From: a virus
Lineage: Duplodnaviria; Heunggongvirae; Uroviricota; Caudoviricetes
Length of the DNA stretch: 64,000 nucleotides
Reading direction: 5' to 3' (one strand)
Virus record (IMG/VR): IMGVR_UViG_2648501839_000008
The notes beneath the pieces were generated by a model. It searched no databases, had not been told where the DNA came from, and saw only the letters and a list, made by a program, of their open reading frames with translations. Of the stretch, positions 334 through 2,442 are shown piece by piece (positions within the stretch are counted from its first letter, which is position 1; the number at the start of each line of letters is the position of its first letter). Both the position numbers and the translations under genes were made by a program.

Positions 334-2442
334 TCACTTCAAAATGATACGAGATAGTTCAGTAACTACAGATGAACCAAGACTATCAACGCTCGTTACT
401 AGGGCATGGTTTGCGTAAAATCTCTCCGGTGCGTCAGTCATGATGCCAATTGCCATCAAATCAATGTCAGTCTGCGTTTCAATTTGCTTCGCAACCGAAC
501 GCAAATGAGCGTCAAAACCTCTCCCAACAGCCCACGGCGCGCCATCGCTTAGAACAAGCATGATCTTCTTGTCCTCCATGCGACCAGAAAATAACGATGC
601 AAGGCTGGCTATGCTTTCACCATCCACGTTATTAAGAAGTGGGAATGTGTAGCCTACGCACCCCATACGTGAGCGAACTTCGCGAGAATTTGCCTTTTCA
701 TTCCAATTTTTGATGATAGGTAGCATTAAAGATTCAAAGCGAGAGAACTCATACTTGATTGCCTTAAGCTCTCCTGCTGCCATATGACTACCAAATGTTG
801 TGAAGCCGGTGATAATGTTGGGAACATTTATTCGATCAAGCGCATCGGCGATGGTATATGCACTTGCAAGAGCCAGTTTAATCGTTTCGCCGCTCATTGA
901 ACCTGATAAATCAATCACTTGTTGAACACAGGCGTTAACGGCCTTAGATTCTTCTTTTTTACGAAACACGCGATCATCATTCATTGCTAATCTGTAGATA
1001 CTAGAACCATGAATGCGCCCCCGACGCTGGCCCGGTATAAACTGAACTCTGTTTCTGCTTGCAATTGCACGCTCCAGGTCTTTTGCCAGCGTCGACGAAA
1101 CACCTGACGAAAGATGCTTTTCAATATATTTGTCGAAGAGTTGGTTGCCTTCAGGAACGATGCGATAACGGCTGATTGGATATCCACCTAAATCAATATC
1201 GGAGAATGTTTTAATAAGCCGTTTGATATGGGCTTCTGCCTGATCAATCGAACCGATGAAGTCGTATGAGCGATTGTATGGCCTGTATTCGCTTTTCGAG
1301 CTTTCTGTTAACTCGCTTTTAATCGTTTCGGATAGTGCATCTTCTGTCATGCCTCCGACTTCATCTTCCATGCTATCAAGCTCCTCTAAAGCCTCTTCCA
1401 GACTCATTTTGGACGGAGTGGGAATGTCTGAAGAGCCGTCTTCTGCCGTTTTTCTTTTTTCGTGATCCGAGGTAGTTGCTTCTGTCGTCGCGCTATTGGA
1501 AGTATCAGAATCTAATACCTCTTTATCATTTTTTGTATCATCGAATATTGTTTCTGATGATTCAGAATTATCTGAATCATCACTATCGTTATCATCATGT
1601 ATGTACTTACCGTGTGACCCATCATCTATAGATATGTGGTTATCTAGCATCTCATGTGTCTTGTGATCTTCATTGTCTTCATTACTTTCTCCAGAGGAAT
1701 CCGCTTGGTCAGCGTCTGAAGGATCGGGAGTTTTTCCCGGAGCTGACTCCTTACCTTTGCTTTCACTTTCTGTGTCTTTGAGGATCTTAGCTATGGTCGC
1801 AGCCACCTTTAAACAATCCTCGGTGCAAGACATGTTACGCACGGCCACATCGATACCATGTTCTTTTAATAATGAAATTGGTTTCTCAATGACAGGCCAG
1901 TATTCATCCATGAAATCTACGAACGGTGCTTGGCCATCCCAGGCTCTTACAACCGGACAGAGAAAGAAGTTTAGAAAAAGCGCGCGCTGATCTTTGCCAC
2001 AATAAGTAATAGCCTCTGAAGCCTTTGGTTTAAAGACTTTTTCGATTATCAGGCGCTGAGTTGCCATCAGATTACGTCTTGTTCCGTTAAAGACCTGCCC
2101 CATTTTTCGCTCGATGAACACGTCTTCTAAGGCATTCCATAGTGACCAGGAAGGGACGTGTCCTTTTTCTCTCATTTTGTTGGACACATGAATATCGGTA
2201 AACAAAATGTGAGCAACTTCATGATCTAGAAATCCGCGTACTGCATTCATCAATGCCGGTGTTGCGTTATCTGGGATTGATGGGATGTTTACGAGAATTG
2301 GCTCTCCATCATCGTTATAGCGTACATAAGCGTCGTCCCCTCGTTCTGCAACAGGGATGTTTTTACCTGAAAGGAGAGCGACTACTCGTTTTACACTGTC
2401 ACGGAAGTCCTGAACCTCTTTGATGGAACGTTTTTTGGACAT
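334..2442 (-). CDS. von Willebrand factor A domain protein, CobT-like (acidic Asp/Ser-rich linker, C-terminal vWA with MIDAS)
   Basis: C-terminal DLSGSMSG (DxSxS MIDAS motif); long acidic low-complexity linker; N-terminal HEVAH (HExxH-like); AGGA-type RBS upstream of start. Confidence 0.65.
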   Translation of the reverse strand: MSKKRSIKEVQDFRDSVKRVVALLSGKNIPVAERGDDAYVRYNDDGEPILVNIPSIPDNATPALMNAVRGFLDHEVAHILFTDIHVSNKMREKGHVPSWSLWNALEDVFIERKMGQVFNGTRRNLMATQRLIIEKVFKPKASEAITYCGKDQRALFLNFFLCPVVRAWDGQAPFVDFMDEYWPVIEKPISLLKEHGIDVAVRNMSCTEDCLKVAATIAKILKDTESESKGKESAPGKTPDPSDADQADSSGESNEDNEDHKTHEMLDNHISIDDGSHGKYIHDDNDSDDSDNSESSETIFDDTKNDKEVLDSDTSNSATTEATTSDHEKRKTAEDGSSDIPTPSKMSLEEALEELDSMEDEVGGMTEDALSETIKSELTESSKSEYRPYNRSYDFIGSIDQAEAHIKRLIKTFSDIDLGGYPISRYRIVPEGNQLFDKYIEKHLSSGVSSTLAKDLERAIASRNRVQFIPGQRRGRIHGSSIYRLAMNDDRVFRKKEESKAVNACVQQVIDLSGSMSGETIKLALASAYTIADALDRINVPNIITGFTTFGSHMAAGELKAIKYEFSRFESLMLPIIKNWNEKANSREVRSRMGCVGYTFPLLNNVDGESIASLASLFSGRMEDKKIMLVLSDGAPWAVGRGFDAHLRSVAKQIETQTDIDLMAIGIMTDAPERFYANHALVTSVDSLGSSVVTELSRIILK

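What the first reader, a model, noticed from the sequence alone, without database searches (positions are those of the whole stretch)
334..2442. CobT-like vWA protein with HExxH motif and a long acidic linker
The protein has a C-terminal vWA domain with an intact MIDAS motif, an Asp/Ser-rich acidic linker and an N-terminal HEVAH motif. vWA proteins usually work with a MoxR/CobS-type AAA+ ATPase, which is not in this window. The adjacent partial ORF at 1-238 is Cys-rich rather than an ATPase, so the partner probably lies beyond the window start.
Basis: partly seen in the sequence, partly recalled or inferred. Interest (0 to 1): 0.45.

Follow-up and report, generated by a model that had tools for sequence, protein, structure and literature searches.

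The report
Phage CobT-like adaptor with AAA+ partner
This is a widely sequenced, already-annotated gene of an E. coli phage-plasmid that encodes the adaptor half of a two-protein ATP-driven machine; its ATPase partner is the very next gene, and the usual "vitamin B12 synthesis" label is probably wrong for this host.

Summary
The ORF is real: 334-2442 on the minus strand, 702 aa. It matches Pfam CobT plus CobT_C (vWA). MIDAS (D511/S513/S515/N605/D633), an acidic Asp/Ser linker and HEVAH (residues 74-78) are all present.

The window is an SSU5/pHCM2-like E. coli phage-plasmid. The exact protein lies on many public contigs and is annotated "CobT" or "porphyrin biosynthesis protein".

That partner is a 411-aa CobS-like AAA_5 ATPase starting 95 nt downstream. 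The cobT-then-cobS order holds in 23/23 related viral loci.

Both proteins score far below NCBIfam's CobT and CobS equivalog cut-offs. A near-identical phage has no CobN, and its RNR is annotated as class Ia.

Best reading: a MoxR-type motor-adaptor pair acting on an unknown protein client, possibly proteolytically. The kind is known and the function is untested.

The parts
334..2442 (-). cobT-like CDS (702 aa plus stop codon): the vWA/zincin adaptor subunit
   Evidence: ORF. Pfam CobT plus CobT_C. phrog_1576 over the full length, E 2e-297. The exact protein was found in 41 blocks of public contigs.
1777..2442 (-). N-terminal domain, residues 1-222: CobT_N-type, M48-like zincin fold
2209..2223 (-). 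HEVAH, residues 74-78: putative zinc-binding and catalytic motif
   Evidence: Located. H74, E75 and H78 are 100% conserved in 128 aligned full-length sequences (the query plus 127 homologues). Authentic CobT has S-M-A-L-R/K at these positions.
2110..2127 (-). E106-D107-x3-E111 on the next long helix: candidate third metal ligand and acidic residues
   Evidence: All three are 100% conserved. The assignment as a metal ligand is an inference, because the model geometry was not inspected.
1288..1776 (-). Acidic Asp/Ser-rich linker, residues 223-385, probably disordered and variable in length
   Evidence: Composition and pI 4.05. Columns are poorly conserved and rich in gaps. Homologues range from 588 to 864 aa. 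Authentic CobT has an acidic linker of about 90 residues that is disordered in the structures.
943..1287 (-). Pre-vWA segment, residues 386-500. It includes the region that aligns to the CobT 'shaft', roughly residues 464-503.
   Evidence: phmmer alignment to 9uka_G residues 347-616. The shaft is defined as Q373-D414 in the preprint. G471, G475 and F493 are conserved. The equivalence to the shaft is an inference.
337..942 (-). vWA domain, residues 501-702, with MIDAS D511/S513/S515/N605/D633 (DLSGS is at 898..912)
   Evidence: PF11775 E 3.3e-83. PDB CobT 9uka_G E 7.5e-17, with the alignment shown. Conservation.
239..333 (-). 95-nt spacer between cobT-like and cobS-like, with an AGGA about 8 nt before the ATG. 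No terminator-like site was found on this strand.
   Evidence: The spacing is the same on the public contigs.
1..238 (-). First 79 codons of the cobS-like AAA+ ATPase gene (411 aa in full). This is an N-terminal extension carrying C18-x2-C21-x4-H26-x4-H31.
   Evidence: The translation is identical to L001:12205-13440. The full protein matches AAA_5 at 2.2e-15, phrog_249 at 4.4e-106 and PDB CobS 9ujv at 7.9e-25. C18, H26 and H31 are at least 90% conserved and C21 is variable.

Best explanation
The gene encodes the adaptor subunit of a two-gene, phage-type CobS/CobT-like module. That module is a MoxR-class AAA+ motor plus a vWA adaptor, carried in the DNA-metabolism block of an SSU5/pHCM2-like E. 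coli phage-plasmid.

The mechanism is inferred by analogy with the solved CobS-CobT-CobN holoenzyme. The CobS-like protein, encoded by the next gene, would form a hexameric ring. The N-terminal zincin-fold domain of the CobT-like protein would dock on the C-terminal helix of the ATPase lid. The segment before the vWA domain would insert into the ring pore. The MIDAS face of the vWA domain would hold a client protein, so that ATP hydrolysis remodels it.

Unlike authentic CobT, this phage family keeps an intact HExxH...E site. The N domain therefore probably binds a metal and may cleave the client or deliver a metal to it.

The client is probably not CobN, so the pair is probably not a cobalt chelatase in this host.

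Shown here: identity, architecture, partner gene, conservation and the contrast with authentic CobT. Inferred: the assembly, any catalysis and the nature of the client.
For: Replicon identity: 97% identical over 9 kb to E. coli plasmids of about 110 kb and to Escherichia phages Cyrano and CMS-2020a, with homologues in SSU5.

Partner: an AAA_5 gene lies 95 nt downstream on every contig that carries the exact protein. The same order and strand hold in 23/23 viral loci whose N domains are 31-98% identical.

Homology to solved structures: the best PDB relatives are CobT (vWA part, 7.5e-17) and CobS (7.9e-25).

Docking interface: in authentic CobT_N, D80 and N130 contact R312 and Q311 of CobS. D80 and N130 align to D73 (100% conserved) and N124 (99%). 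CobS R312 and Q311 align to K408 (R or K in 24/24) and Q407 (17/24).

Zincin site: H74, E75, H78, E106, D107 and E111 are invariant. The fold evidence is. phrog_459 'peptidase' hits residues 72-128.

Against a chelatase role: TIGR01651 scores 69.6 bits against a cut-off of 759, and TIGR01650 scores 83.7 against 558.6. No CobN or other B12 gene appears in the 104 of 108 kb of phage Cyrano's annotation that was read, and its RNR is annotated NrdA/NrdB type.

From my own knowledge, not tested here: E. coli lacks CobN and de novo corrin synthesis.
Against: No experiment on any member of this phage family was found.

The metal-site geometry in the model could not be inspected.

The invariant D73 and N124 can be explained by docking alone.

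Published opinion differs. One paper treats the viral cobST pair as a cobalamin auxiliary gene that hijacks host CobN, and calls the 'peptidase' label in cyanophages a mistake.

The client is unknown. The conserved position next to DnaE is specific to this lineage and does not show a functional link.
Confidence: 0.55

Rival explanations
1. The pair is an auxiliary metabolic cobaltochelatase. Phage CobS and CobT would join a host CobN to raise cobalamin synthesis during infection, as proposed for viral cobST clusters.
For: The domain architecture and the best solved relatives are CobT and CobS. The proposal was published for tailed viruses of archaea and bacteria. The residues that dock CobT_N on CobS are conserved.
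Against: Both proteins score far below NCBIfam's equivalog cut-offs. No CobN or other cob gene is annotated in the near-identical phage Cyrano, and its RNR is annotated NrdA/NrdB, not the B12-dependent class II. E. coli, and Salmonella, which uses the anaerobic CbiK route, have no CobN (my own knowledge). An invariant HExxH that authentic CobT lacks would be unexplained.
Confidence: 0.07
2. The pair is a virion-assembly chaperone and co-chaperone with peptidolytic processing of structural proteins. This was proposed for the MoxR plus (metallopeptidase-vWA) pair of group 2.2 jumbo phages, by analogy with the MoxR/vWA proteins needed for tail development in Acidianus two-tailed virus.
For: The same three-part architecture has been described in phages, with this proposed role. 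The HExxH is intact.
Against: The pair sits between the integrase/repressor-like genes and DnaE, SSB, the exonuclease and RecA. It is not in the structural block, which lies at about 23-53 kb of the window. Whether the jumbo-phage proteins belong to the same family was not tested. Gene position is only weak evidence of timing.
Confidence: 0.18
3. The pair is a metallochaperone without proteolysis. The HExxH site would hold a metal ion that the motor-adaptor pair inserts into a phage or host metalloenzyme, as NorQ/NorD and CoxD/CoxE do. Candidate clients are the PHP domain of the adjacent DnaE or the NrdB subunit.
For: MoxR/vWA pairs are commonly metal-insertion systems (discussion). DnaE lies within about 2 kb in 22/22 loci of this lineage that hold enough DNA. 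MIDAS and HExxH are both conserved.
Against: The DnaE linkage is absent from all 26 more distant viral relatives, so it may only reflect inherited gene order. Zincin HExxH sites normally hold a catalytic zinc and are not known as transfer sites (my own knowledge). There is no direct evidence.
Confidence: 0.2

Closest known systems
Aerobic cobaltochelatase subunits CobT and CobS (Brucella structures 9uka, 9ujv, 21vt, 21vu; bioRxiv 10.64898/2026.07.21.739949)
   Same: A two-gene AAA+ plus adaptor pair. The adaptor has an N-terminal M48C-like domain, an acidic disordered linker, and a vWA domain with MIDAS and a pre-vWA shaft. The docking residues D80/N130 and R312/Q311 have conserved equivalents.
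   Different: Sequence identity was not tabulated, and the scores are far below the equivalog cut-offs. A profile of the phage N domain does not find CobT_N in the PDB at E <= 10. The phage family has an invariant D-H-E-x-x-H where authentic CobT has D-S-M-A-L-R/K. The gene order is T then S. The CobS-like protein has an extra N-terminal extension of roughly 100 residues relative to CobS (about 140 residues precede the aligned AAA+ region), carrying a Cys/His motif. No CobN was seen in the replicon.
Viral cobST two-gene cluster (Liu et al., PLoS Biol 2021, PMC8651126)
   Same: It is the same kind of cluster. That paper reports it in tailed viruses infecting 8 bacterial or archaeal orders and notes that cyanophage cobT is often labelled a peptidase. 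BFVD structural hits include the haloarchaeal viruses HHTV-2 and HCTV-2.
   Different: That paper interprets the pair as hijacking host CobN. Here the host and replicon appear to lack CobN, and the conserved HExxH argues that the 'peptidase' label is not simply a mistake.
MoxR AAA+ plus (metallopeptidase-vWA) pair of group 2.2 jumbo phages (Iyer et al., Viruses 2021, PMC7824862)
   Same: An AAA+ ATPase gene paired with a vWA protein that carries an N-terminal metallopeptidase domain, in phages.
   Different: Orthology was not tested. The genomic context differs: here a siphovirus-type phage-plasmid of about 110 kb, with the pair in the replication block. Their proposed role is virion assembly.
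Other MoxR/vWA motor-adaptor pairs: NorQ/NorD, CbbQ/CbbO, RavA/ViaA
   Same: AAA_5-type motor with weak sequence hits to CbbQ (4.4e-06) and NorQ (0.0015), a vWA-MIDAS adaptor, and the 6:1:1 motor-adaptor-client logic.
   Different: Those adaptors are not described as carrying a zincin domain. Their clients are known (cNOR, Rubisco); here the client is not.
M48/M56 zinc metallopeptidases (Ste24/ZMPSTE24, BlaR1, M48 peptidase 3c37)
   Different: There are no membrane segments. Similarity is low (5-12% identity). The third-ligand spacing of 28-33 residues is shorter than I recall for Ste24. Activity is untested.

Membership tests
Cobaltochelatase subunit CobT (NCBIfam TIGR01651 equivalog; EC 6.6.1.2) | Whole-protein score above the curated equivalog cut-off | tested here: not met
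   69.6 bits against a cut-off of 759.05, and only residues 434-697 matched.
Cobaltochelatase subunit CobT (NCBIfam TIGR01651 equivalog; EC 6.6.1.2) | C-terminal vWA domain with the MIDAS residues of the solved CobT (D422, S424, S426, N518, D546) | tested here: met
   They align to D511, S513, S515, N605 and D633. All are at least 99% conserved.
Cobaltochelatase subunit CobT (NCBIfam TIGR01651 equivalog; EC 6.6.1.2) | A CobN subunit available in the same cell to receive the adaptor | tested here: not met
   No CobN or other cob gene appears in the annotation of the 97%-identical phage Cyrano (record positions 103901-108379 were not read) or in the 27 kb read from plasmid NZ_CP031136. The host genome itself could not be searched at protein level. 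Absence of CobN in E. coli rests on my own knowledge.
Cobaltochelatase subunit CobT (NCBIfam TIGR01651 equivalog; EC 6.6.1.2) | Cobalt insertion into hydrogenobyrinic acid a,c-diamide | not testable with these tools
   This needs a biochemical assay.
Pfam CobT (PF06213) plus CobT_C (PF11775) architecture | Both domains above their gathering scores, in this order | tested here: met
   89.5 bits (cut-off 26.1) and 279.1 bits (cut-off 21).
MoxR-class AAA+ / vWA motor-adaptor systems | An adjacent, co-oriented AAA+ (AAA_5) gene with Walker A and B motifs | tested here: met
   G175-x2-G-x-G-K181 and D241-E242 are at least 90% conserved. The adjacency holds in 23/23 loci.
MoxR-class AAA+ / vWA motor-adaptor systems | Physical complex and ATP-dependent remodelling of a client | not testable with these tools
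   Only indirect support: the docking residues of the solved CobS-CobT_N interface are conserved.
Zincin (gluzincin, M48-like) metallopeptidases | HExxH on the active-site helix | tested here: met
   HEVAH at residues 74-78, inside helix 62-81 of the model. Invariant across homologues.
Zincin (gluzincin, M48-like) metallopeptidases | A third metal ligand (Glu) on a downstream helix, in binding geometry | tested here: inconclusive
   E106 and E111 are invariant and lie on helix 99-117. The model coordinates could not be inspected.
Zincin (gluzincin, M48-like) metallopeptidases | Zincin fold | tested here: inconclusive
   [not shown]
Zincin (gluzincin, M48-like) metallopeptidases | Peptidase activity | not testable with these tools
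   This needs an enzyme assay with an E75A control.
PHROG phrog_1576 (phage protein family, function unknown) | Full-length profile match | tested here: met
   E 2e-297, residues 5-702 against profile positions 2-729 of 729.

The most novel reading that the evidence does not exclude
The phage CobT-like/CobS-like pair would be an ATP-driven protease or remodeller: an AAA+ ring, a vWA-MIDAS client clamp and a live zincin domain. Its protein client would be unrelated to cobalamin, for instance a replication or host-takeover target. Authentic CobT would then be a pseudopeptidase derivative of such a machine, and many viral 'cobalamin auxiliary metabolic gene' calls would be misassigned.
Probability: 0.3. 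Interest if true: 0.55.

Novelty: already known. Interest (0 to 1): 0.25.

Why it matters
The gene is common. Its 90%-identity cluster holds 3,307 sequences, and relatives occur in more than 1,300 plasmid records, some of which carry blaCTX-M.

It is routinely reported as a cobalamin or porphyrin biosynthesis gene, and as a viral auxiliary metabolic gene in metagenome studies. If the pair does not make B12 in hosts without CobN, those metabolic inferences are wrong.

The conserved HExxH, set against the degenerate site in authentic CobT, gives a concrete and cheap test: metal content, an E75A mutant, and client trapping. That test addresses what viral CobST modules actually do. None of this makes the finding itself new, because the family, its architecture and its partner have all been described.

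Tried and rejected
- Foldseek of the N-domain model against the PDB gave no match with E < 1. That library stops at April 2026 and seems to lack the CobT entries.
- The afdb50 library was not available.
- The full-length AF2 model, built from 17 close homologues, failed (pLDDT 37.2) and was not used.
- An HMM of the phage N domain against PDB sequences did not find CobT_N. Its only hit near significance was AcrIIA26 (E 0.0024, 52 residues), whose own paper reports a novel fold. I treat this as unresolved or chance.
- PADLOC gave no convincing defence-system match. The only hit was DrmE at 16 bits across the linker.
- A functional link to DnaE was rejected as unproven. It is perfect within this lineage and absent outside it.
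- The second word-indexed profile search returned only 38 proteins, mostly fragments.
- Literature searches for SSU5 or pHCM2 together with cobT or cobalamin found nothing relevant.
- The promoter and terminator scans found no more sites than in shuffled sequence.

Full report
**Observation.** Window 334..2442 holds one ATG-to-stop ORF of 702 aa on the minus strand.
- Pfam places CobT (PF06213) on residues 9-294 (E 3.6e-25) and the CobT vWA domain (PF11775) on residues 492-701 (E 3.3e-83).
- HEVAH is at residues 74-78. DxSxS occurs at 291, 313 and 511.
- In shuffles of this protein an HExxH appears 2.8% of the time, and DxSxS is expected 0.63 times. So the motifs mean little on their own, and conservation has to decide.
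- The linker, residues 223-385, is 31% Asp+Glu and 26% Ser+Thr with pI 4.05.

**What the replicon is.** The first 9 kb of the window are 97% identical over their whole length to E. coli plasmids of about 108-120 kb that are typed non-mobilizable. They are 94-97% identical over about 80% of their length to Escherichia phages Cyrano and CMS-2020a.
- Protein-level relatives occur in Salmonella phage SSU5, Klebsiella phage-plasmids, and Rhizobium, Pseudomonas and Stenotrophomonas phages of 105-118 kb.
- The rest of the window carries long ORFs of the sizes expected for tail and head genes, and four tRNA genes.
- This is therefore an SSU5/pHCM2-like phage-plasmid.
- The exact 702-aa protein is on record in 41 blocks of public contigs. 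Its 90%-identity cluster holds 3,307 sequences, named 'cobalamin biosynthesis protein CobT', 'cobaltochelatase CobT-related protein' or 'porphyrin biosynthesis protein'.

**The partner.**
- On every contig that carries the exact protein, a 411-aa AAA_5 (PF07728) gene starts 95 nt downstream on the same strand. It is followed by DNA polymerase III alpha, a gp32-like SSB, a 5'-3' exonuclease and RecA.
- The 79 residues encoded at window 1..238 (minus strand) are identical to the start of that protein. Only its AAA+ core, with Walker A at residues 175-182, lies beyond the window edge.
- The protein matches phrog_249 (4.4e-106). Its best solved relative is CobS (9ujv, 7.9e-25), followed by midasin, CbbQ and NorQ.
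- No terminator-like site on this strand separates the two genes, and an AGGA precedes the ATG.
- In 23 of 23 viral contigs whose N domain is 31-98% identical to this one, the cobS-like gene follows on the same strand.

**The C-terminal half.** phmmer aligns residues 440-697 to residues 347-616 of the solved Brucella CobT (7.5e-17).
- The MIDAS residues named in the structural preprint are D422, S424, S426, N518 and D546. They align to D511, S513, S515, N605 and D633.
- All five are at least 99% conserved in 128 aligned full-length sequences: the query plus 127 representatives of 50%-identity clusters.
- The segment that forms the 'shaft' entering the CobS ring aligns to roughly residues 464-503, which are well conserved here.

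**The N-terminal domain.** An AF2 model of residues 1-225, built with 19 sequences, reached pLDDT 87.6.
- Its order of elements is one helix, three strands, a helix carrying HExxH, then eight more helices. The preprint describes the same order for the CobT_N crystal structure, which it calls M48C-like.
- Foldseek against the PDB found nothing significant.
- BFVD returned the N-termini of viral 'CobT/VWFA' proteins of 570-810 aa from siphoviruses, podoviruses, haloarchaeal viruses and actinophages.
- phrog_459, annotated 'peptidase', matches residues 72-128.

**The point of difference from authentic CobT.**
- HExxH is present in 149 of 150 cluster representatives, and the exception is a fragment without that region.
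- D73, H74, E75, H78, E106, D107, E111, G120 and R166 are 100% conserved across the full-length set (128 aligned sequences), and N124 is 99%.
- The solved CobT reads ...TRGLGDSMALRQARHN...FDAVEQARVEAIG....
- hhalign puts D80-S-M-A-L-R of CobT opposite D73-H-E-V-A-H of this protein. That alignment is weak in itself (probability 27.5%, E 6.5e-4, single-sequence template).
- All 80 Hyphomicrobiales CobT genes fetched have G-D-S-M/L-A-L-R/K at that site. None of the 59 checked has an HExxH in the N domain. This sample covers one bacterial order only.
- A profile of the phage N domain does not find CobT_N among PDB sequences at E <= 10, although Pfam's CobT model covers both.

**Docking residues.** The preprint lists salt bridges between CobS R312 and CobT_N D80, and hydrogen bonds between CobS Q311 and CobT_N N130.
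- Through the alignments these correspond to K408 (R or K in 24/24 CobS-like sequences), D73 (100%), Q407 (17/24) and N124 (99%).
- This supports the same docking mode. It also explains two of the invariant residues without any catalysis.
- It does not explain the invariance of H74, E75, H78, E106, D107 and E111.

**Is it a cobalt chelatase here?**
- NCBIfam's equivalog models score 69.6 bits (cut-off 759) for CobT and 83.7 bits (cut-off 558.6) for CobS.
- The annotation of phage Cyrano was read for positions 1-103,900 of 108,379. It lists no CobN and no other cobalamin gene, and its ribonucleotide reductase is annotated NrdA/NrdB rather than the B12-dependent class II.
- From my own knowledge, E. 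coli has no CobN and no de novo corrin pathway, and Salmonella uses CbiK. I could not search host proteomes with the tools at hand.
- The published proposal that viral CobST hijacks host CobN therefore fits this replicon poorly.

**Mechanism.** The best-supported reading is a MoxR-type motor-adaptor pair built like CobS-CobT, NorQ-NorD or CbbQ-CbbO. It would act on a protein client held at the MIDAS face, and its N-terminal zincin domain would still bind metal and may be catalytic.
- The architecture has been noted in jumbo phages, where a virion-assembly role was proposed.
- Here the pair lies among DNA-metabolism genes. DnaE follows within about 2 kb in all 22 loci of this lineage that hold enough DNA, but in none of 26 more distant relatives. 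The linkage may therefore be inherited gene order only.
- I found no experimental work on any member.
- Identity and architecture are secure. Assembly is inferred by homology. Catalysis and the client are conjecture.

**Verdict.** The error is the treatment of the adjacent ORF, which is the sought ATPase. The gene family, its partner and its domain make-up are already described and widely annotated, so novelty is low. The residual interest is that the usual functional label is probably wrong in this host, and that the conserved HExxH gives a simple way to test it.

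Noticed in passing
window 1-238 (-) and L001:12205-12630: The CobS-like ATPase has an N-terminal extension of roughly 100 residues that Brucella CobS lacks (about 140 residues precede the aligned AAA+ region). It carries C18-x2-C21-x4-H26-x4-H31. C18, H26 and H31 are at least 90% conserved in 24 sequences, and C21 is often D or N. It may be a small zinc-binding module. There is no Pfam match.
   Followed up: partly
window 16239-17942 (-): A 567-aa ORF lies in a sharp GC trough (0.318 against about 0.46). It matches the Pfam KAP_NTPase family (1.5e-05) and the PADLOC candidate defence family PDC-S49 (2.8e-22). It is probably an acquired defence-type gene carried by the phage-plasmid.
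   Followed up: partly
window 5120-6382 (+): A 420-aa ORF in a lower-GC stretch (0.38) has no Pfam or PADLOC match. The spot is variable: phage Cyrano has different genes there. In some relatives ISEcp1-blaCTX-M lies a few kb further on.
   Followed up: no
window 6575-7228 (-): A cluster of four tRNA genes: Ser-TGA, Thr-TGT, Tyr-GTA and Asn-GTT. The stretch is 82-90% identical to tRNA regions of phage P7 and phage vB_EcoM-Ro157c2YLVW.
   Followed up: no
window 2541-2753 (-): A 70-aa ORF lies just upstream of cobT on the same strand. It matches phrog_2627 (function unknown, 7.7e-41) and is present in all close relatives. Whether it belongs to the same transcription unit was not examined.
   Followed up: no
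L009 (phage Cyrano OV696614) 8003-11442: Cyrano's annotation names the pair 'dimethylbenzimidazole phosphoribosyltransferase' and 'cobalamin synthetase'. Those are the unrelated Salmonella-nomenclature CobT and CobS, so this is a name-collision error.
   Followed up: yes
[not shown]
   Followed up: partly
L013, L014, L025 (viral contigs); L008 1-532 and 4676-5410: In some relatives DnaE is split into two ORFs. Plasmid NZ_CP031136 lists an HNH endonuclease inside the DnaE interval and a LAGLIDADG homing endonuclease where RecA lies in close relatives. This suggests inteins or homing endonucleases in the replication genes beyond the window start.
   Followed up: no
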